From Fimbriimonadales bacterium (GTDB lineage: Bacteria; Armatimonadota; Fimbriimonadia; Fimbriimonadales; ATM1), in assembly GCA_041744215.1 (NCBI GenBank), contig JBGTLG010000016.1, positions 32,001 to 96,000 on the forward strand: a DNA stretch of 64,000 bases, read 5' to 3'. The notes beneath the pieces were generated by a model that did no database searches, was not told the DNA's origin, and saw nothing but the letters and a program-made list of their open reading frames with translations. Position 1 is the first letter of the stretch. Each line of letters begins with the position of its first letter. Shown one piece after another: positions 22,436 through 30,035 of this stretch. A program made the translations under genes and the position numbers.

Positions 22436-23317
22436 TTAGCACGCCTCGAAGCGCACATCGGGCATATCGGGCATATTGGCAAACCTAGCCTTCATCACGT
22501 TTATCGACTCTGGATGAGAGTCCACCAGGACGAAGTCCCGGCCGGCCTCTGCTGCAGCTACACCTGTCGTGCCGCTCCCTGCGAAGAAGTCGAGCACTAA
22601 TCCGCCTGGCGGCGAGGATGCCCCGACTATTCTTCGGAGTATTCCGAGTGGCTTCTGAGTCGGGTAGCCCGTCTTTTCTTTCCCGGTTGGAGAGACGATC
22701 GTGTGCCACCAAGTGTCTGTGGGCAGCTTGCCGCGCTCTGCCTTCTCTTCGCCGGCCATCTTCGGTGCCATGTAAGGTATTCGATCCACAGCCGCCGCAT
22801 CGAAGTAGTAGTTTTCTATATCCTTGACGTGAAGGAGAATATTGTCATGCTTAGGTGGCCACCTCTTGCTCGATCGTCCGCCGTAGTCATAAGCCCAAAT
22901 GATTTCATTGAGGAAGTTCTTTCGTCCAAAGATTTGATCAAGGAGTACTTTGCAGTAATGAACTTCACGGTAGTCGACATGAACGTAAAGCGAGCCGCTT
23001 TTCTTTAGAACGCGATGAGCCTCAGTTAACCTGGGTTCCAAGAAGCTCAGATAGTCGTCGAAGTTGTCTTCGTATGACGCGACGCGAAGAACGTCCGTCC
23101 GGTAGTTGCGGCCACCGAAGCCTACCCTCGGTGATGAATCGTCGCGAATTGCCTTGGTCGACGTTCTGCTTCGCGTGGTTCCTGTATTGAACGGAGGATC
23201 AACGTAGATGAGGTCTACCGACTCCGAGGGAAACCCTTGCAGGACGGCCAAGTTATCTCCGAAGATGATTCGACCAGCCACAATCAAGTTCTCACGTTTG
23301 GCATGGTCGGAATCCAA
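22436..23317 (-). CDS. Site-specific DNA amino-methyltransferase (N6A/N4C, beta class); start uncertain
   Basis: Catalytic DPPF precedes SAM-binding DFFAGSGTT; YPTQKP. Confidence 0.9.
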   Translation of the reverse strand: MDSDHAKRENLIVAGRIIFGDNLAVLQGFPSESVDLIYVDPPFNTGTTRSRTSTKAIRDDSSPRVGFGGRNYRTDVLRVASYEDNFDDYLSFLEPRLTEAHRVLKKSGSLYVHVDYREVHYCKVLLDQIFGRKNFLNEIIWAYDYGGRSSKRWPPKHDNILLHVKDIENYYFDAAAVDRIPYMAPKMAGEEKAERGKLPTDTWWHTIVSPTGKEKTGYPTQKPLGILRRIVGASSPPGGLVLDFFAGSGTTGVAAAEAGRDFVLVDSHPESINVMKARFANMPDMPDVRFEAC

Positions 23318-23437: not shown

Positions 23438-23530
23438 TGGCGGAGCGGGTGGGATTCGAACCCACGACCCGTCTTGACAACGAGTACGCGATTTCCAGTC
23501 GCGCTCCTTCGACCACTCGGACACCGCTCC
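23438..23530 (-). tRNA. tRNA-Ser(GGA), long variable arm, encoded CCA
   Basis: GGAGCGG acceptor, anticodon arm CGCGA-CTGGAAA-TCGCG, GGTTCGAATCC T-arm, 3' GCCA. Confidence 0.97.
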
Positions 23531-23556
23531 AGAACGGGAGGGATTATGGCAGATGA

Positions 23557-24408
23557 CTAACTCCGCGCACCCCATAGCAATCGCGTCCGCAGTTTGACCA
23601 AGAAGTCCGATCGATCTACCATAAGCAGCCGGGTCACGCGTTCAGACCGGGTTACGACAATCTCGTCGCCAGTCACCATGTTCAGTCGGTGCTGCCCATC
23701 AGCAGAAAAAACTGCGTCGCCTTGAACATCGACCATCAATTCGACGCGGCTATCAGGCGAAAGCACCAGCGGACGCGCACCGAGAGAGTGCGGAGTAATA
23801 GGCGTCAGCAACATCGCGTAGACACGCGGATGAACAATCGGCCCCCCAGCGGACAAAGAGTAGGCAGTCGAGCCGGTCGGAGTCGCAACCAGCAAACCGT
23901 CCGCGGGATAAGAAGTAATAAACTCCCAATCAATTCGCACACCAAATGACATCATCCGCGTTGCGATCGAACGCTGCACAGCGATTTCGTTCAACGCATG
24001 AAGTGTTGCAACGACAACACCACCGCGAACCAACTCACCACGAAGCATCATCCGATCGTCAAACTCCGCGTTGCCATCCAAGAACTGGCGCAACGCACTA
24101 CGAACCTCATGCGGATCACACTGAGTCACGAATCCAAAACGACCAAAATAAACGCCCAAGATCGGAGTGTTGCACTCACTCGCAGGACCGCTCGCACGAA
24201 TCAAAGTCCCATCCCCACCAAAAGTCGCAACCAAATCGCAATCCCCGATCTCAGGCAAAGCAACCCAAGCCTCATTCAAAGCAGCGCCGCTCTCGTGATC
24301 AAACCGAACCTCAACACCCAAACCCCGCAACCAACCAGCAGCAGACAAAGCAGAAGACACCGCGTCCTCACGAGCTGGATTCACTACGAAGTTGATCCGA
24401 GGCATCAA
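23557..24408 (-). CDS. nadK: NAD(+) kinase
   Basis: GGDGT, LNE, DGLLVATPTGSTAYSLSAGGP. Confidence 0.95.
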   Translation of the reverse strand: MMPRINFVVNPAREDAVSSALSAAGWLRGLGVEVRFDHESGAALNEAWVALPEIGDCDLVATFGGDGTLIRASGPASECNTPILGVYFGRFGFVTQCDPHEVRSALRQFLDGNAEFDDRMMLRGELVRGGVVVATLHALNEIAVQRSIATRMMSFGVRIDWEFITSYPADGLLVATPTGSTAYSLSAGGPIVHPRVYAMLLTPITPHSLGARPLVLSPDSRVELMVDVQGDAVFSADGQHRLNMVTGDEIVVTRSERVTRLLMVDRSDFLVKLRTRLLWGARS

Positions 24409-24447
24409 AACCTCAACGTCAATGACACAGCAAACAATTCAAAAACT

Positions 24448-25890
24448 CTAACGACCAGAACCTTCCAAACGATCCAAGTTGCGACGAGCCTCAGAATAAT
24501 CCGGCTGCAATTGCAACGCACGACGAAGCAAAGAAATCGCCTCAGCCTTCTTATTCAAACGCTCAAGCGTGACTGCCAAATTGTTCAAGTAATCCGCGCG
24601 ACCACCGTCAGCAGAAACCGCAGCACGAAAACGACGCTCAGCATCAGCCATGTCGCCGTCGCGATAAGCAAGCAAACCCATACCGTTCAAGGCATCACCA
24701 TGACGAGGATTCGCAAGAAGCAACTGATTGTAATGATGCTTCGAACCAACAAAATCACCCGTCAAATACAAACCCTGAGCCAAAGATAAGCGAACATCAT
24801 GACGAGCAGGAGAAGAACGAATCACTTCCTTCCATAACTCAACAGCGGCAGAAGTCTTACCCAAACCAGAATGACTCGCAGCAAGATTCAACTTCGCATC
24901 AACACTACCAGGAGCAATGCCAGACAGCTTCATAAAAGTCAGCTCAGCATCAGAATAAGCGCCAGTCTTCAACTGAGCCAAACCCAAATTGTTCAAAGCA
25001 TCCTGATCTGTCGGAGACAAAGCCAAACAACGCTTGTAAGCCGCAATCGAACCAGAATCGTTCCCAGACAAACCCTCCATAACACCCAAGTTGTACCAAA
25101 GAGTCGCATCATCACGCAACAATACAGAACGACGAAGCAAACCCAATGACTTCTCAGAAGAACCTGTCAAACGATATGCCTCAACAAGAGCGATAACAAC
25201 GTCAACAGAACCAGGATCAGCAGAATGAGCACGCTCCAGATAAACCAAGGAATCCGATGCACGCCCCCCCCGCAACAATGCGATACCAGCGTTCTTCGAA
25301 AAAATAGCCCGATCAGGACGCAAACGACTCGCAGATACAAAATGAACCGCAGCGCCAGCATGATCACCCTGCATAACCAATACAGCCCCCAAATTGTTCA
25401 AACAATAAGCGTCATCACCACGAATCGACAAAGCACGCTCATAATGAGAACGAGAAGAAACCAAATCACCAAGCTCGCGATCGATGTTCCCAAGGTTGTA
25501 CCAGCCGTCAAAAAAACCGCCGTCCAAAGCAACAGCAGAAAGATAAGAACGACGAGCCCCAGCCAAATCACCCAGCTGAACATAAGCGCCGCCCAAGTTG
25601 TTCAATATCTCCAAATTCCCAGGAGACAAAACAGACGCGCGAGACAAATAAACAGAAGCATCAGAAGCAACACCCTTCTGAAGACTCAGATAACCAGCCC
25701 AATGCAATACATCCGCGTTATCACCAGCCTCGCCAGCAAGAACAACAGCACGAGACAAAGCGCCATCCAAATCACCAGACTTGAATAAACGGATCACCTC
25801 CAACAAACGATCAGATACCGAGCCCTGACCAAAACACACACAACTCAGAGAAAACGCCAAAAACACAAACAACAGCTTTCTATGCATCAC
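24448..25890 (-). CDS. Tetratricopeptide-repeat protein with signal peptide
   Basis: Repeated LNNLG/WYNLG...AL.L.P units at about 34-aa spacing; hydrophobic N-terminus. Confidence 0.9.
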   Translation of the reverse strand: MMHRKLLFVFLAFSLSCVCFGQGSVSDRLLEVIRLFKSGDLDGALSRAVVLAGEAGDNADVLHWAGYLSLQKGVASDASVYLSRASVLSPGNLEILNNLGGAYVQLGDLAGARRSYLSAVALDGGFFDGWYNLGNIDRELGDLVSSRSHYERALSIRGDDAYCLNNLGAVLVMQGDHAGAAVHFVSASRLRPDRAIFSKNAGIALLRGGRASDSLVYLERAHSADPGSVDVVIALVEAYRLTGSSEKSLGLLRRSVLLRDDATLWYNLGVMEGLSGNDSGSIAAYKRCLALSPTDQDALNNLGLAQLKTGAYSDAELTFMKLSGIAPGSVDAKLNLAASHSGLGKTSAAVELWKEVIRSSPARHDVRLSLAQGLYLTGDFVGSKHHYNQLLLANPRHGDALNGMGLLAYRDGDMADAERRFRAAVSADGGRADYLNNLAVTLERLNKKAEAISLLRRALQLQPDYSEARRNLDRLEGSGR

Positions 25891-26047
25891 AACTCTCCAA
25901 AATCATCTCCGGATACACTATATTCTACCGACCCAAGGGCCTATATGGTACACATTTCGGCACAATTTTGACCACTCCAGCAGACTTGACAGGTAGGAGT
26001 TCAGTTCAAATCGCCGTGGCCCCGCCCAAATGGGTACGATGGGCTTG

Positions 26048-26800: not shown

Positions 26801-27883
26801 TTGAGCCAGAAAATCGCCAACGCGACCCTTCACGAACTTCTTGAAATTGCTTACCATGAGAAGGCTTCCGACCTGTTCATCAAGGCGGGATCCGTCCCAA
26901 AGATCAGGCAACACGCACTTGTTAAGCCCTTGCCAGGAGACTGGGAGGTCATTGATGAGGACGAAGCGCGACGGCTCGTCACGAGCACGATGACCAGCAA
27001 GCAGTTGACTTCGTTTGAGGATAACCTTGAGATGGACCTTGCGTTCCCTGTCGGGGACATGATGCGAATTCGAGCGAACCTCTATTTCCAGAGGGGGTCT
27101 ATGGCTGGCGTCTTCAGACTCATCCCAATCGAAATCCTCTCGATCGAGCAGCTCGGACTCCCACCCGTCCTCGGTGAACTCACCAAACACAGGCAAGGAC
27201 TCGTGCTCTTCACAGGACCAACTGGGTGCGGAAAAACTACATCCCTCGCCGCCGTACTCGACCTCATCAACATAAACCGAGCCTGCCACATCGTCACCAT
27301 CGAAGATCCACTCGAATTCGTCCACATGGACAAGGCAGCCTACGTCAGCCAAAGAGAAGTCCACATCGACACACTCGACTTCTTCATCGCAATGAGAGCT
27401 GTCCTAAGAGAAGCACCCGACGTCATCCTCGTCGGAGAAATGCGCGACCCAGTCACCATGAACGTCGCACTCCAAGCAGGGGAAACAGGACACCTCGTCT
27501 TCTCAACCGTACACACCCCAAGCGCAGCGGAAACTCTCGACCGTATCGTGAACATGTTCCCGCCACACGAGAAAAATCACCTCTGCATGCGACTCTCAGG
27601 ATCCCTAAGAGCAGTTATCGCCCAAAAACTCGTCCCAAGAGCCGACGCCGAAGGCCGCGTCTGTGCCACCGAAGTCATGATCTGCACACCCACCGTCAGC
27701 AAACTGATCGAAGACGGACACTTTGGCGAACTCTATCACGCAATTTCTGAAGGCCACTTCTGGGGCATGCAAACTATGAACCAAAGCCTCTTGAAGTACG
27801 TCAAGGCCGGAGTCATCACCGAAGAGACGGCGCTGCAGTATGCGGGCATCGTTTCCGAACTTAGACAACTACTTCGACGCTAG
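26801..27883 (+). CDS. pilT: PilT/PilU-family type IV pilus retraction ATPase (copy 1)
   Basis: GPTGCGKT, TIEDP, ILVGEMRD, ETGHLVFSTVHT, GMQT. Confidence 0.9.
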   Translation: MSQKIANATLHELLEIAYHEKASDLFIKAGSVPKIRQHALVKPLPGDWEVIDEDEARRLVTSTMTSKQLTSFEDNLEMDLAFPVGDMMRIRANLYFQRGSMAGVFRLIPIEILSIEQLGLPPVLGELTKHRQGLVLFTGPTGCGKTTSLAAVLDLININRACHIVTIEDPLEFVHMDKAAYVSQREVHIDTLDFFIAMRAVLREAPDVILVGEMRDPVTMNVALQAGETGHLVFSTVHTPSAAETLDRIVNMFPPHEKNHLCMRLSGSLRAVIAQKLVPRADAEGRVCATEVMICTPTVSKLIEDGHFGELYHAISEGHFWGMQTMNQSLLKYVKAGVITEETALQYAGIVSELRQLLRR

Positions 27884-27886
27884 CTG

Positions 27887-28978
27887 ATGCAACCGTCTAT
27901 TGACGAATTGCTGAGGGACCTGGTTAGTCGAGAGGCTAGCGACCTGCACATCAAGGCTGGTTTACCGCCAGTGATGCGCATTCATGGCACGTTGGTTCAA
28001 ACGAACTATCCTGCCTTAAGCAGCGAACAAACCGAAGCTCTCCTCAAGAGCATCCTTAATGAGGAGCGTTTCGCGCGGCTTGAGAGTTTCAAGGAACTAG
28101 ACCTCTCCTATCAAGTCGAGGGGCTGAGCCGCTTTCGCGTCAACATGTTTTGGACACGAGGCGAGTTAGCTGCCGTCTTCCGAGTGATCCCCTTTGAGAT
28201 AAAGACAATTGACGATCTTGGCATTCCGAAGGTAGCGAAGAGCATTGCATTACTGCCTCGCGGATTGATCCTTGTGACGGGTCCGACTGGATCCGGCAAG
28301 AGCACTACACTTGCTGCGATGGTAACGCATATCAACTCGCATCGGAAGCAGCACATAATGACGGTCGAAGACCCGATTGAGTATATGCACTCCGACAACG
28401 TCAGCGTCATCAATCAGCGAGAACTCGGGGTCGACACTCACAGCTTCGCAGATGCGCTTCGTCATGTCATGCGACAAAATCCTGACGTTATCTTGGTCGG
28501 CGAGATGCGCGACTTGGAGACGATTCAGCTGGCGATTACGGCTGCCGAAACGGGCCACCTCGTCATGTCAACCCTTCACACTGTTGACGCAGCACAGACG
28601 ATTGACCGCATCGTCGACGTTTTTCAGCCTGACCAGCAAGCGCAAATACGAACTCAACTTTCGGTCACTCTTCAAGCCGTGATCAGCCAGACATTGTTGC
28701 CCACAAAGGACGGTGCCGGTCGTGTAGCTGCGTTTGAAGTACTGGTCGCGACGCCCAGCGTCCGCACACTGATACGAGACGGGAAGACTCACCAACTCTA
28801 TCTCGACATTCAGACCGGCGCAGAGCATGGGATGCAAACGTTGGACGGACACCTTTTGAGCCTGTTGAAAGACGAGGTTATTGACTACGAGAACGCGATT
28901 GCAAAGAGCCAGGCTCCGGCAGAGTTTCAGCGACGTGCTATCAATCTTGGCTTGTTAGAGGGAGAGGCGAGTGCCTAG
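27887..28978 (+). CDS. pilT: PilT-family ATPase (copy 2)
   Basis: ASDLH, GPTGSGKS, ILVGEMRD, AETGH..STLHT, VRTLIRD. Confidence 0.93.
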   Translation: MQPSIDELLRDLVSREASDLHIKAGLPPVMRIHGTLVQTNYPALSSEQTEALLKSILNEERFARLESFKELDLSYQVEGLSRFRVNMFWTRGELAAVFRVIPFEIKTIDDLGIPKVAKSIALLPRGLILVTGPTGSGKSTTLAAMVTHINSHRKQHIMTVEDPIEYMHSDNVSVINQRELGVDTHSFADALRHVMRQNPDVILVGEMRDLETIQLAITAAETGHLVMSTLHTVDAAQTIDRIVDVFQPDQQAQIRTQLSVTLQAVISQTLLPTKDGAGRVAAFEVLVATPSVRTLIRDGKTHQLYLDIQTGAEHGMQTLDGHLLSLLKDEVIDYENAIAKSQAPAEFQRRAINLGLLEGEASA

Positions 28979-30035
28979 AATCCCTGACTTGCTGCGCCGG
29001 GTCGTTGAGCTGAACGGTTCGGACTTACATATCAAGGCGGAATCCAGACCGTATGTCCGGATTCATGGTGAACTCCAGCAACTCGAGGACGAGGAACCGT
29101 TCACAGCGGCAGCTGCACGCGAGGACATCTACAGCGTTATCAGCGAGGCTCAACGAAAGCGATTCGAGAAAGAGCTGGAGTTAGATTTCGCTTACTCGAT
29201 CGCGGACGTTGCTCGTTTTCGCGGAAACATCTACCAGCAGCGCGGCTTGGTCCAAGCGGCTTTTCGCGTGATCCCACTCTACATCCAGACTCTTGAAGAT
29301 CTCGGACTACCCAAGATCGTTCACACCTTTTGCGAACGTCCGCGAGGCCTTGTACTTATGACGGGCCCTGCCGGCAGCGGGAAATCCACAACGCAAGCGG
29401 CTTGCATCGATCACATCAACCGAAAAACTGCGTGTCACATCATTACTGTTGAAGATCCGATTGAGTTCATTCATGACGACGTTTTGGCCGTAATTCGGCA
29501 GCGAGAACTCGACGTGGATACCCTTAGTTTCGCAAACGCCCTGAAGTATGTTCTTCGCCAAGATCCAGACGTGATCCTCATCGGGGAGATGCGAGATCTT
29601 GAAACGATACAGCTTGCGATCACTGCAGCTGAGACGGGACACCTCGTTTTTGGAACGTTGCATACGGTAGACGCAGTGCAAACTGTCGATCGAATCATCG
29701 ATGTGTTTCCGATCCACCAACAGCAGCAGATTCGAATGCAGTTATCTGTAAACCTGGTGGGTGTGATATCGCAAACGCTCGTCCGACGCGCAGACGGAAA
29801 CGGCCGCATCGCCGCCTACGAAATCCTAAACGCCGTTGGCGCTGTTCGCAATCTCATCCGCGAGAACAAGACTTACCAGATCACATCTATCGTCCAGACG
29901 GGCGCGAGGATGGGAATGCAAACATTGGACCAAAGCCTCGCAAATCTTGTTCGTGCGGAACTCGTCACCCATGACGAAGCTGCCGCCAAGGCCAAGGATC
30001 GAGGAGAGTTTGAGCGGCTTGTAGACAGCAAGTAG
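28971..30035 (+). CDS. pilT: PilT-family ATPase (copy 3)
   Basis: GSDLH, GPAGSGKS, LIGEMRD, GTLHT, AVRNLIRE. Confidence 0.93.
   Translation: MPRIPDLLRRVVELNGSDLHIKAESRPYVRIHGELQQLEDEEPFTAAAAREDIYSVISEAQRKRFEKELELDFAYSIADVARFRGNIYQQRGLVQAAFRVIPLYIQTLEDLGLPKIVHTFCERPRGLVLMTGPAGSGKSTTQAACIDHINRKTACHIITVEDPIEFIHDDVLAVIRQRELDVDTLSFANALKYVLRQDPDVILIGEMRDLETIQLAITAAETGHLVFGTLHTVDAVQTVDRIIDVFPIHQQQQIRMQLSVNLVGVISQTLVRRADGNGRIAAYEILNAVGAVRNLIRENKTYQITSIVQTGARMGMQTLDQSLANLVRAELVTHDEAAAKAKDRGEFERLVDSK

What the first reader, a model, noticed from the sequence alone, without database searches (positions are those of the whole stretch)
23850..25920. Sharply localised extreme strand asymmetry (+ strand A/C-rich) across nadK and the TPR gene
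Seen: the + strand is almost stripped of T and poor in G. Hand counts of 60-mers: 24301-24360 has A27 C24 G8 T1; 25621-25680 has A27 C15 G13 T5. Both minus-strand genes remain intact, but their codons end mostly in T/G, and the TPR protein looks enriched in Ser/Val/Gly/Leu. The bias fades inside nadK and stops abruptly near 25.9 kb. Established: C-to-T and A-to-G changes accumulate on DNA held single-stranded. Inference: a long-lived, site-specific process (replication initiation or termination, fork stalling, persistent R/D-loop, local strand-displacement synthesis) exposes the minus strand here. This would be a chromosomal landmark with no gene label.
Basis: partly seen in the sequence, partly recalled or inferred. 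Interest (0 to 1): 0.78.

Follow-up and report, generated by a model that had tools for sequence, protein, structure and literature searches.

The report
One-strand mutation island, TPR–nadK operon
A 2-kb stretch of this hot-spring bacterium's chromosome has had nearly all its freely changeable letters turned into G or T on one strand while the two genes stayed intact; it is one of about two dozen such islands, so it is a patchy one-strand mutation footprint of unknown cause and not a unique chromosomal landmark.

Summary
The skew sits at silent codon positions (TPR gene: 85 % G+T at position 3, 49 % at position 2) and in non-coding spacers, so it is evolved sequence under purifying selection, not an artefact, a burst or codon selection. 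It arose in place on this lineage; the sister species has the same genes and tRNA without the skew. Polarised changes on the minus strand are C>T 59 vs 6, G>T 31 vs 2 and A>G 17 vs 4. That fits damage to an exposed single strand and is broader than deamination alone.

The "unique landmark" reading fails. The genome has 23 such islands of both polarities, and a relative has 47. The dnaA-linked origin is on another contig and shows a bipolar switch, whereas this island is unipolar. Genome-wide the skew follows the absolute strand, not gene direction. This island nevertheless runs from the operon's promoter region to a downstream tRNA.

The closest published kind is GRINS (Nivina 2021), but this island is single-copy. 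The mechanism is unresolved. My best guess is transcription-linked exposure of the non-template strand (about 0.4). This scan has already noted similar patches in at least 13 other genomes.

The parts
23886..25936 (-). Skew island: the minus strand is G/T-rich (plus strand 68 % A+C). Sharp edge at about 25,937; gradual fade toward 23,459-24,009.
   Evidence: HMM segment C16:55886-57936; change-points; composition; single copy in the genome.
24448..25890 (-). TPR-repeat protein gene (480 aa, hydrophobic N-terminus). G+T at codon position 3 is 0.85, second highest of 2,144 genes.
   Evidence: ORF; Pfam TPR_2 E=2.9e-44 and other TPR families; codon positions; 61 % aa identity to the G001 orthologue vs <=50 % to ten other relatives.
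23557..24408 (-). nadK (NAD kinase, 283 aa). G+T at position 3 is 0.74, fading to 0.53-0.71 in the last 60 codons.
   Evidence: Pfam NAD_kinase_C E=1.5e-34 and NAD_kinase E=4.3e-12; codon bins; 87 % identity to G001 vs <=78 % to others.
23438..23530 (-). tRNA-Ser(GGA), 26 bp downstream of the nadK stop on the same strand. Probable 3' end of the skewed unit; the tRNA itself is not skewed.
   Evidence: ARAGORN; Rfam RF00005 57.8 bits; A+C is .51 over 23438-23556. The same layout in G001 carries no skew.
24409..24447 (-). Non-coding spacer between TPR and nadK; 77 % A+C on the plus strand.
25891..25936 (-). 5' leader / promoter-like stretch upstream of the TPR start; 70 % A+C on the plus strand. 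It holds a TAGAAT (-10-like) hexamer on the minus strand at about 25,921-25,926. The skew stops just beyond (25,937-26,029 is 54 %).
   Evidence: The promoter is inferred from the hexamer only; the sigma-70 scan did not call it.
27115..27721 (-). Second, weaker patch of the same polarity (minus strand G/T-rich) inside the plus-strand pilT-like gene 26801-27883. Here the coding strand is A/C-rich: G+T at position 3 is 0.07-0.30 across codons 121-330.
   Evidence: HMM segment C16:59115-59721; codon bins; change-points 27,115 and 27,722; Pfam T2SSE.

Best explanation
The island is an in-place, lineage-specific footprint of a substitution bias acting on one DNA strand. Since G000 split from its sister species, the minus strand of about 2 kb has gained T and G at the expense of C and A wherever selection allows: silent codon positions, spacers, and tolerant amino-acid positions. 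The polarised spectrum (C>T much greater than G>T, then A>G, then A>T, all on the minus strand) is what hydrolytic and oxidative damage does to DNA held single-stranded, in an organism assembled from hot-spring samples. For this island the exposed strand is the non-template strand of a TPR-nadK-tRNA-Ser unit. The patch begins within about 50 bp of the operon's 5' end and fades toward the tRNA. I therefore infer that the recurrent exposure is transcription-linked: an R-loop-like or stalled-transcription state that leaves the coding strand unpaired. Shown: strand specificity, silent-site location, in-place origin, direction of change, and no excess of position-1+2 substitutions over the sister branch. 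Inferred: single-strandedness, the link to transcription, and the role of temperature. It is one member of a genome-wide mosaic of such islands and not a unique landmark.
For: The skew is at position 3 and in non-coding DNA, with position 2 untouched. Polarised G000-branch changes in TPR+nadK on the coding strand are, at positions 1+2 (n=87), C>T 22/T>C 5, A>G 11/G>A 3, G>T 14/T>G 2, A>T 6/T>A 2; at position 3 (n=71), C>T 37/1, G>T 17/0, A>G 6/1. The sister branch in the same genes is far less directional (n=91 and 49). Inheritance is vertical and the G001 orthologues are unskewed (GT3 .54 and .48). The sharp edge at 25,937 (support 25,902-25,986) sits beside the TPR start (25,890) and a TAGAAT hexamer. 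In G000, 6 of 14 scorable islands have their 5' edge within 150 bp of a co-oriented gene start (1.7 expected, P=0.008) and 5 of 16 have their 3' edge at a co-oriented gene end (1.9 expected, P=0.036), with no enrichment at anti-oriented borders. The 3'-edge/co-oriented-end link replicates in G010 (10 of 32 vs 3.9, P=0.002). The divergent neighbour orf26030 is not skewed this way (S = -0.11), so the sign changes at the shared promoter region. The G/T-rich strand carries 14.6 G3+ runs per kb against 0.5 on the other strand. Three of 19 genes lying <=60 bp upstream of a same-strand tRNA are at or above the 99.6th GT3 percentile (about 0.1 expected). The source is labelled a hot springs metagenome. 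RNase HI was not found in G000 nor in 0 of 18 family members searched.
Against: Genome-wide the skew follows the absolute strand and not gene direction. Neighbour GT3 correlates at r=+.51 for same-strand pairs (n=1210) but r=-.45 for divergent (n=278) and -.40 for convergent pairs (n=308). Genes are 'co' with their domain's skew only 46-51 % of the time. The same holds in G010 (+.63, -.64, -.52). 'Anti' islands exist, including the pilT1 patch 1.2 kb away, C33:168863-170168 and C15:86253-88051; these would need unproven antisense transcripts. The ribosomal-protein/EF-Tu cluster is ordinary (GT3 .39-.56). G001 has the same TPR-nadK-tRNA layout without skew. Sixteen of the 19 tRNA-upstream genes are ordinary. 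The tRNA link does not replicate in G010 (0 of 40 tRNAs with upstream K >= .60), and the 5'-edge link is not significant there (6 of 32 vs 3.9, P=.18). The tRNA link was found post hoc. No promoter was called by the scan. Two RNase HII-family genes are present. No transcription or R-loop data exist. Equal position-1+2 substitution counts on the two branches (87 vs 91), with reverse changes down (19 vs 41), could equally reflect a fixation bias.
Confidence: 0.4

Rival explanations
1. The exposure is independent of gene orientation and linked to replication or repair. Recurrent fork pausing, gaps on one template strand, or repeated one-strand repair synthesis at this spot leaves the minus strand single-stranded or copied with errors. 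Gene borders matter only because bound transcription complexes or tRNA genes set where forks pause.
For: Absolute-strand coherence across oppositely oriented neighbours holds in two genomes. The skew forms domains of about 10-25 kb (lag-1 r=.46, lag-10 .19, lag-30 .05). 'Anti' islands need no extra assumption. Weak halos are symmetric on both flanks (K about .53 within 3 kb, paired p=.66). Replication does write this footprint in the clade: there are bipolar switches beside dnaA in G010 (about 449-452 kb) and in G000 (C40, about 35-38 kb). Island length of 0.3-2.7 kb is near bacterial Okazaki-fragment size (the size is recalled). The island ends at a tRNA gene, a known fork-pause element in yeast (recalled).
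Against: Island polarity agrees with the putative leading strand in only 29-30 of 47 G010 islands (p=.08-.14). Both polarities alternate within single contigs. Gene orientation is unrelated to the skew, unlike classical leading-strand bias. For a fork paused at the tRNA, the skew should be strongest next to the tRNA, but here it fades there and is sharpest at the far, promoter edge. The edge enrichment is specific to co-oriented gene borders in G000.
Confidence: 0.3
2. This is a single-copy stage of the GRINS phenomenon. An as yet unknown process (Nivina et al. suggest error-prone copying of tautomeric bases, coupled to gene conversion) or a strand-specific fixation bias recodes kb-sized segments toward keto or amino bases.
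For: The phenotype matches the published description: more than 500 bp, mean |GC skew| .28 and |TA skew| .42 (threshold .15), strongest at third positions, functional proteins, Thr/Pro depleted and Gly enriched. The authors mention single-copy intense-skew regions. Position-1+2 substitutions are not more numerous than on the sister branch (87 vs 91), while reverse changes are halved (19 vs 41) and forward ones rise only 1.36-fold (68 vs 50), as a fixation bias would give. Similar patches were noted by this scan in at least 13 genomes, including non-thermal ones (unchecked AI notes).
Against: The defining repeat is absent: no non-self BLAST hit for this island or the other large islands. The strong G>T component is not predicted by the tautomer (transition-only) idea. 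No mechanism is established, so this is a label more than an explanation. MutS/MutL are present.
Confidence: 0.15
3. One reading: a unique site-specific landmark, namely a replication origin, terminus or dedicated strand-displacement site.
For: The patch is strong and sharply bounded. Origins in this clade do carry the same kind of footprint.
Against: There are 23 islands in G000 and 47 in G010. dnaA and its bipolar switch lie on contig C40. There is no polarity switch at this island and its halos are symmetric. It is absent at the orthologous locus in G001 and in 10 other relatives' loci.
Confidence: 0.03
4. Selection on codon usage or mRNA composition of these genes, such as a regulon tuned to T/G-ending codons.
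For: Several islands are gene-shaped.
Against: Non-coding spacers and leaders are equally skewed. Patch borders fall inside genes (nadK, pilT1, the WD40 gene at C6:18257). Opposite-strand neighbours share the absolute-strand skew. The island genes have unrelated functions. Highly expressed genes are ordinary.
Confidence: 0.03
5. A foreign or chimeric insert carrying its donor's composition, an assembly or sequencing artefact, or an enzymatic burst (a deaminase toxin, or reverse-transcription-based retro-conversion of an mRNA-tRNA co-transcript).
For: The edges are sharp. The island ends at a tRNA. Four of 23 HMM segments touch contig ends.
Against: TPR and NadK are each closest to the sister species and the locus is colinear with it. 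The sequence is identical in three samples' independent contigs. Codon-position filtering excludes an artefact or a single burst. No clean sequence-context footprint was seen. No RVT_1 reverse transcriptase was found in this 93 %-complete genome. Two of the contig-end cases are one island split by a 141-bp overlap, and one is an IS flank.
Confidence: 0.04

Closest known systems
[quoted passage not shown]
   Same: Kb-scale, abruptly bounded, intense GC and TA skews of the same sign (G+T or C+A). They are strongest at third codon positions and encode working proteins, with shifts in amino-acid use (Gly up, Pro/Thr down). They occur across bacterial phyla, and the mechanism is unknown.
   Different: GRINS are defined by duplication (>500 bp with >80 % identity to another copy) and are tied to gene conversion. 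This island and the other large islands here are single-copy. GRINS often flip sign within 1 kb; this island has one sign throughout. The authors mention single-copy skewed regions only in passing.
Replication-associated strand asymmetry (G/T-rich leading strand; polarity switch at the origin)
   Same: The same base pairs are affected, the effect follows the absolute strand, it is independent of gene direction, and it sits at silent sites. This clade shows that footprint beside dnaA.
   Different: It is local (2 kb, not a replichore), unipolar, three to ten times stronger than the contig-level background, and on a different contig from dnaA. Island polarity is only weakly related to the putative replichore in G010.
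Transcription-associated mutational asymmetry: C>T and A>G excess on the non-transcribed strand (E. coli work of Beletskii & Bhagwat and of Francino & Ochman, and mammalian work of Green et al.; all recalled, not read here)
   Same: The G+T excess is on the coding strand of a transcription unit, starting near its 5' end.
   Different: The known effects are small and scale with expression. Here a few units are extreme while ribosomal-protein genes are normal, and other islands have the opposite orientation to their genes.
Deamination gradients of animal mitochondrial DNA: heavy strand single-stranded during replication (PMC3269015; abstract seen in the listing only)
   Same: C>T and A>G on the exposed strand, strongest at third and weakest at second codon positions.
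   Different: This is a chromosomal patch and not a whole genome. There is no known strand-displacement origin. A large G>T component is present.
R-loop / AID-targeted immunoglobulin switch and variable regions (recalled; PMC2118391 seen in a listing only)
   Same: A kb-scale zone that starts just downstream of a promoter, has a G-rich non-template strand, and mutates through exposure of that strand.
   Different: That system is eukaryotic, enzymatic and somatic. No deaminase footprint was found here, and the changes are germ-line and filtered by selection.

Membership tests
GRINS (Nivina et al. 2021) | Region longer than 500 bp | tested here: met
   2,051 bp.
GRINS (Nivina et al. 2021) | Mean absolute GC skew and TA skew above 0.15 (150-nt windows) | tested here: met
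   0.279 and 0.423.
GRINS (Nivina et al. 2021) | Duplicated: more than 80 % DNA identity to another region of the same cluster or genome | tested here: not met
   blastn of all 23 islands against the 2.68-Mb assembly gave no non-self hit for this island. Only two small islands have internal tandem repeats. The genome is 93 % complete, so a copy in unassembled DNA is not excluded.
GRINS (Nivina et al. 2021) | Skew most marked at third codon positions, with GC and TA skews correlated | tested here: met
   Island K at positions 1/2/3 is .68/.51/.84. GC and TA skews have the same sign throughout. Window-to-window r is .23 inside the island and .41 over 20 kb.
Replication origin or terminus | Polarity switch of strand skew at the site | tested here: not met
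   The island is unipolar with symmetric same-sign halos. Bipolar switches are seen elsewhere, beside dnaA.
Replication origin or terminus | Linkage to dnaA/oriC, and one or few per chromosome | tested here: not met
   dnaA is at C40:40783-42147, not on C16. There are 23 islands in the genome.
Transcription-associated strand asymmetry / R-loop zone | The G/T-rich strand is the non-template (coding) strand | tested here: met
   TPR and nadK are on the minus strand, which is the G/T-rich one. This is not met for the neighbouring pilT1 patch.
Transcription-associated strand asymmetry / R-loop zone | The zone starts at the transcription start and ends at the terminator | tested here: inconclusive
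   The edge at 25,937 (support 25,902-25,986) lies beside the start codon at 25,890 and a TAGAAT hexamer, and the skew fades toward the tRNA. The real TSS and terminator are unknown, and the promoter scan was negative.
Transcription-associated strand asymmetry / R-loop zone | RNA:DNA hybrid or single-stranded non-template strand detectable; dependence on transcription | not testable with these tools
   No RNA or R-loop data. The runs found are DNA contigs only.
Horizontally acquired island | Phylogenetic discordance or broken synteny | tested here: not met
   NadK is 87 % and TPR 61 % identical to the same-genus G001, higher than to any of 10 other relatives, and the locus is colinear.

The most novel reading that the evidence does not exclude
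Kb-sized, single-copy, one-strand recoding islands are a general and undescribed feature of DNA metabolism in many uncultured prokaryotes and large phages. They would come from a bistable, self-reinforcing exposure of one strand. For example, an R-loop or gap-prone state makes the displaced strand more G/T-rich, which in turn stabilises that state. Such a state switches on and off at individual transcription units over species-level time and rewrites silent sites and part of the protein. GRINS would then be the special case in which such a segment also spreads by gene conversion.
Probability: 0.2. Interest if true: 0.8.

Novelty: new variant of a known kind. Interest (0 to 1): 0.5.

Why it matters
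Local, strand-specific substitution bias this strong breaks the usual assumption that silent-site composition is uniform along a bacterial chromosome apart from the replichore trend. It distorts codon-usage, HGT-detection, dN/dS and phylogenetic analyses for the genes involved. It also measurably shifts protein composition: Thr, Pro and Ile fall to about a third to two-fifths of the genome average in the TPR protein. The only published description (GRINS) is tied to repeats and gene conversion and offers no tested mechanism. This case adds several things. It is a single-copy example in housekeeping genes. It has an outgroup-polarised spectrum (C>T, G>T, A>G on one strand). There is no sign of a rate increase. 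The islands turn over between sister species. There is a partial link to transcription-unit borders. And the same genomes give a direct comparison with the true origin footprint. That makes the question testable, since the organism's islands give precise coordinates for R-loop, ssDNA and replication-profile mapping.

Tried and rejected
- **Within-population variants.** The one read-laying run gave only contigs. X1 covers the stretch with 0 differences. X2 and X3 hold the same strain at depth about 3-4 and no sister strain, so recent changes could not be polarised. The other "differences" listed come from conserved parts of other organisms (tRNA, pilT).
- **Shared motif at island edges.** None was found among 13 edges; the best 9-mer occurs in 3.
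- **Sigma-70 promoter scan.** 1 hit against 2.4 expected, and none at the island edge. The excess of minus-strand terminator-like hits (15 vs 7.7) is a side-effect of T-richness.
- **Deaminase context footprint.** All contexts shift. C flanked by pyrimidines shifts more (about 8-10-fold in odds vs about 3-fold), but this is confounded by GGC/CGC codon preference.
- **Expression-linked codon bias.** Rejected, because the ribosomal-protein/EF-Tu cluster has GT3 .39-.56.
- **Unidirectional fork leaving the island.** Rejected, because the halos are symmetric.
- **Lack of mismatch repair.** Rejected: MutS (two copies) and MutL are present, and NucS was not found.
- **Lack of uracil repair.** Rejected: two UDG-family genes are present. 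Endonuclease V was not found, but the control finds it in only 7 of 14 reference genomes.
- **Reverse-transcriptase retro-conversion.** No RVT_1 was found.
- **RNase HI.** Its absence is a family-wide trait (0 of 18), not specific to G000, and two RNase HII-family genes exist.
- **tRNA link.** Suggestive in G000 (3 of 19), not replicated in G010 (0 of 40).
- **Contig ends.** The association (4 of 23) dissolves: C38-end and C37-start are one island with a 141-bp overlap, and C26-start is an IS flank.
- **Faster protein evolution in skewed genes.** Not seen (r=.13, p=.11, n=153).
- **Strict NadK-only polarisation.** Only 3 sites, uninformative.
- **Caveats.** The MTase control for the polarised spectrum failed because only G001 had an orthologue in the fetched loci. 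Genes were called with my own simple caller that ignores position 3, so start codons are approximate.
Full report
**1.
In 300-bp windows the plus strand between about 23.6 and 26.0 kb has AT skew +0.32 to +0.52 and GC skew down to -0.38, while the flanks sit near zero. A likelihood change-point puts the sharp edge at 25,937 (support 25,902-25,986). The other edge is gradual, anywhere between 23,451 and 24,009, so the bias does fade inside nadK. The stretch holds two intact minus-strand genes: a TPR-repeat protein (24,448-25,890) and NAD kinase (23,557-24,408). A tRNA-Ser(GGA) lies 26 bp downstream of nadK.

**2. It is evolved sequence, not an artefact, a burst or codon selection.**
On the coding strand G+T is 0.68, 0.49 and 0.85 at codon positions 1, 2 and 3 of the TPR gene and 0.61, 0.55 and 0.74 in nadK. 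Neighbouring genes are near 0.5 at position 3. A process that spares position 2 and saturates position 3 must have acted gradually under purifying selection.

Non-coding DNA is skewed too. The nadK-TPR spacer is 77 % A+C, the 5' leader 70 %, and the 93 bp beyond the edge 54 %. Pooled over all islands of at least 600 bp, non-coding K is 0.64 (n=3,801). The sequence is identical in contigs from three samples of one study, including pieces across the patch and its edge.

With the proteins kept and synonymous codons redrawn from genome-wide usage, the genome yields 10-11 HMM segments (5.2-5.6 kb) and 4 windows above |0.3|. The real genome has 23 segments (25.1 kb) and 67 such windows.

**3. It arose in place on this lineage.**
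NadK is 87 % and TPR 61 % identical to the same-genus genome G001. That is higher than to any of ten other relatives (at most 78 % and 50 %), and the locus is colinear with G001. The G001 orthologues are unskewed (GT3 0.48 and 0.54), although G001 has the same nadK-tRNA-Ser layout.

I used eleven relatives to polarise changes. Those assigned to the G000 branch on the coding (minus) strand are:

| Change | Positions 1+2 (n=87), forward/reverse | Position 3 (n=71), forward/reverse |
|---|---|---|
| C>T | 22/5 | 37/1 |
| G>T | 14/2 | 17/0 |
| A>G | 11/3 | 6/1 |
| A>T | 6/2 | 0/0 |

The same genes on the G001 branch are far less directional: C>T 22 vs 19 and A>G 12 vs 13 overall, with G>T 19 vs 7. 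The spectrum is broader than deamination, though, because G>T, typical of oxidised or lost guanine, is the second-largest class.

The number of position-1+2 changes is the same on both branches (87 vs 91). Skew does not correlate with protein divergence across 153 orthologue pairs (r=.13). The bias changed without a visible rate increase. This leaves room for a fixation bias as well as a mutation bias.

**4. It is not a unique landmark.**
Genome-wide there are 45 merged patches above |0.22|, or 23 HMM islands, of both polarities. GT3 varies among genes with sd 0.061 against a binomial 0.029. The tail genes are unrelated in function: TatD, MoaB, MoaC, a GNAT, an amidase, PP2C, DnaJ-WD40, peptidases, a NERD helicase, pilT.

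The skew is a property of the absolute strand. GT3 of neighbouring genes correlates at +0.51 when they share a strand and at -0.45 or -0.40 when they are divergent or convergent. Genes are "co" with their domain's skew only 46-51 % of the time. The coherence decays over 10-20 genes. Contig means are only -0.055 to +0.066. The ribosomal-protein/EF-Tu cluster is ordinary.

I fetched the 2.23-Mb chromosome of relative G010, and it shows the same thing independently: neighbour correlations +0.63, -0.64 and -0.52, and 47 islands. Islands turn over quickly. GT3 of G000 and G001 orthologues correlates at only r=.26, and each species has its own skewed genes.

**5. Relation to replication.**
dnaA is on contig C40 in G000 and at 464.6 kb in G010. 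Beside both there is a bipolar, orientation-independent switch of the same silent-site footprint. In G010, S is +0.1 to +0.24 left of about 449 kb and mostly -0.1 to -0.34 for at least 45 kb to the right. In G000, S is mostly +0.15 to +0.29 at 28.7-34.4 kb (one gene at -0.18) and -0.20 to -0.36 at 38.5-42.1 kb. Replication therefore does write this signature in the clade.

The island under study differs. It is unipolar, stronger (S=+0.70 for TPR) and on another contig, and it has symmetric weak halos on both flanks. In G010 island polarity agrees with the putative leading strand in only 29-30 of 47 cases.

**6. Relation to transcription units.**
The G/T-rich strand of this island is the coding strand. 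Its sharp edge lies beside the TPR start and a TAGAAT hexamer. The divergent neighbour is not skewed the same way. The skew fades toward the tRNA.

In G000, 6 of 14 island 5' edges lie within 150 bp of a co-oriented gene start (1.7 expected, P=.008). Five of 16 3' edges lie at co-oriented gene ends (P=.036). Anti-oriented borders show no enrichment. In G010 the 3'-edge link replicates (10 of 32 vs 3.9, P=.002), but the 5'-edge link does not (6 vs 3.9, P=.18).

Three of the sixteen islands of at least 600 bp (this one, C4:499-2382 and C22:46396-48135), all among the most skewed, end at a same-strand tRNA 11-26 bp after the last gene. Three of 19 genes in that position are at or above the 99.6th GT3 percentile. 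This was found post hoc, 16 of the 19 are ordinary, and it does not replicate in G010 (0 of 40 tRNAs).

"Anti" islands, including the pilT1 patch 1.2 kb away, are not explained by sense transcription.

**7. What I conclude about mechanism.**
Firmly established: a local, strand-specific, lineage-specific bias that recodes silent sites toward T and G on the minus strand. Its spectrum is that of damage to single-stranded DNA, and the organism was assembled from hot-spring samples.

Inferred, at about 0.4: for this island the exposure is that of the non-template strand of the TPR-nadK-tRNA unit, in an R-loop-like state.

The main rival, at about 0.3, is an orientation-independent replication- or repair-linked exposure. 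It explains the genome-wide neighbour statistics and the "anti" islands better, but explains the promoter-side sharp edge worse.

A GRINS-type unknown process or a fixation bias remains possible at about 0.15.

Enzyme leads were checked without a decisive result. UDG (two genes), MutS (two) and MutL are present. Endonuclease V, NucS, RVT_1 and RNase HI were not found in this 93 %-complete genome. RNase HI was also not found in any of the 18 other family members searched, and two RNase HII-family genes are present. No clean sequence-context footprint of an enzymatic deaminase was seen.

**8. Comparison with what is known.**
The nearest published kind is GRINS (PMC8256042; I read the abstract and sections 5, 6, 10, 11 and 13). 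The island meets the length and skew thresholds and the third-position signature. It fails the defining duplication criterion, since there is no non-self hit. The authors mention single-copy skewed regions only in their Discussion and give no tested mechanism.

In the held library the term appears in five papers, all on PKS/NRPS. I did not see their supplementary tables.

This scan's own notes list similar keto/amino patches in at least 13 other genomes: archaea, giant phages and a Poribacteria symbiont. Those are unchecked AI notes. They gave me the GRINS lead and lower the weight of a purely thermophilic explanation.

I file the island as a new variant of a known kind: a single-copy, housekeeping-gene, GRINS-like skew island.

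**9. Verdict.**
The phenomenon is striking and mechanistically open, but it is not unique to this locus, has a published relative, and was seen repeatedly in this scan.

Noticed in passing
G000 contig C40:28,000-43,000 (outside the window): Origin-like bipolar switch of silent-site strand skew next to dnaA (C40:40783-42147). Most genes at 28.7-34.4 kb have S +0.15 to +0.29; genes at 38.5-42.1 kb have S -0.20 to -0.36, whatever their orientation. The skew is confined to about 8 kb on each side.
   Followed up: partly
G010:C1:433,000-495,000 and 2,056,000-2,103,000 (relative): There are two origin-like plus-to-minus polarity switches in one chromosome. One is at about 449-452 kb, 13-16 kb from dnaA. 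The other is at about 2.09-2.10 Mb, where seven islands cluster and cumulative GC skew has its minimum. Whether the second is an integrated replicon or a second initiation zone is open.
   Followed up: partly
window 26,801-30,035: Three tandem pilT/T2SSE-like ATPase genes (26801-27883, 27887-28978, 28971-30035). They are 96, 93 and 87 % identical to their G001 orthologues, and only the first carries a skew patch.
   Followed up: partly
window 22,436-23,317: A DNA methyltransferase gene of the N6_N4_Mtase family sits directly downstream of the tRNA-Ser. No restriction-enzyme gene was looked for in the window, so whether it is an orphan is open. Orthologues were recovered in only 1 of the 11 relatives' fetched loci.
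   Followed up: no
G000 C38:62,141-62,997 and C37:1-145: Contigs C38 (end) and C37 (start) overlap by 141 identical bases inside a skew island, so the assembler broke within an island. C26:1-150 matches the flank of a DDE transposase also present at C6:189.5 kb and at the end of C35.
   Followed up: partly
G000 C16:140,024-140,561 and C27:4,294-4,686: Two small skew islands consist of internal tandem repeats (units about 84 bp and about 130 bp, 79-85 % identical). These are the only islands here that approach the repeat criterion of GRINS.
   Followed up: no
G000 C24:22,136-22,867 and C30:84,809-85,760: Two islands lie where my gene caller found no gene (732 and 952 bp). They are either missed genes with unusual composition or long non-coding stretches with strong skew.
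   Followed up: no
Whole genome G000 and family f1: RNase HI (PF00075) was not found in G000 nor in 0 of 18 other genomes of its family, but in 8 of 8 genomes of three sister families. Endonuclease V (PF04493) and NucS were also not found in G000.
   Followed up: partly
G000 C33:160,000-173,000: A defence-like gene cluster (Schlafen-like helicase, HNH, DUF2726, NERD-AAA_19 helicase) lies directly upstream of rplU. The helicase gene and rplU share one absolute-strand skew despite opposite orientation.
   Followed up: no
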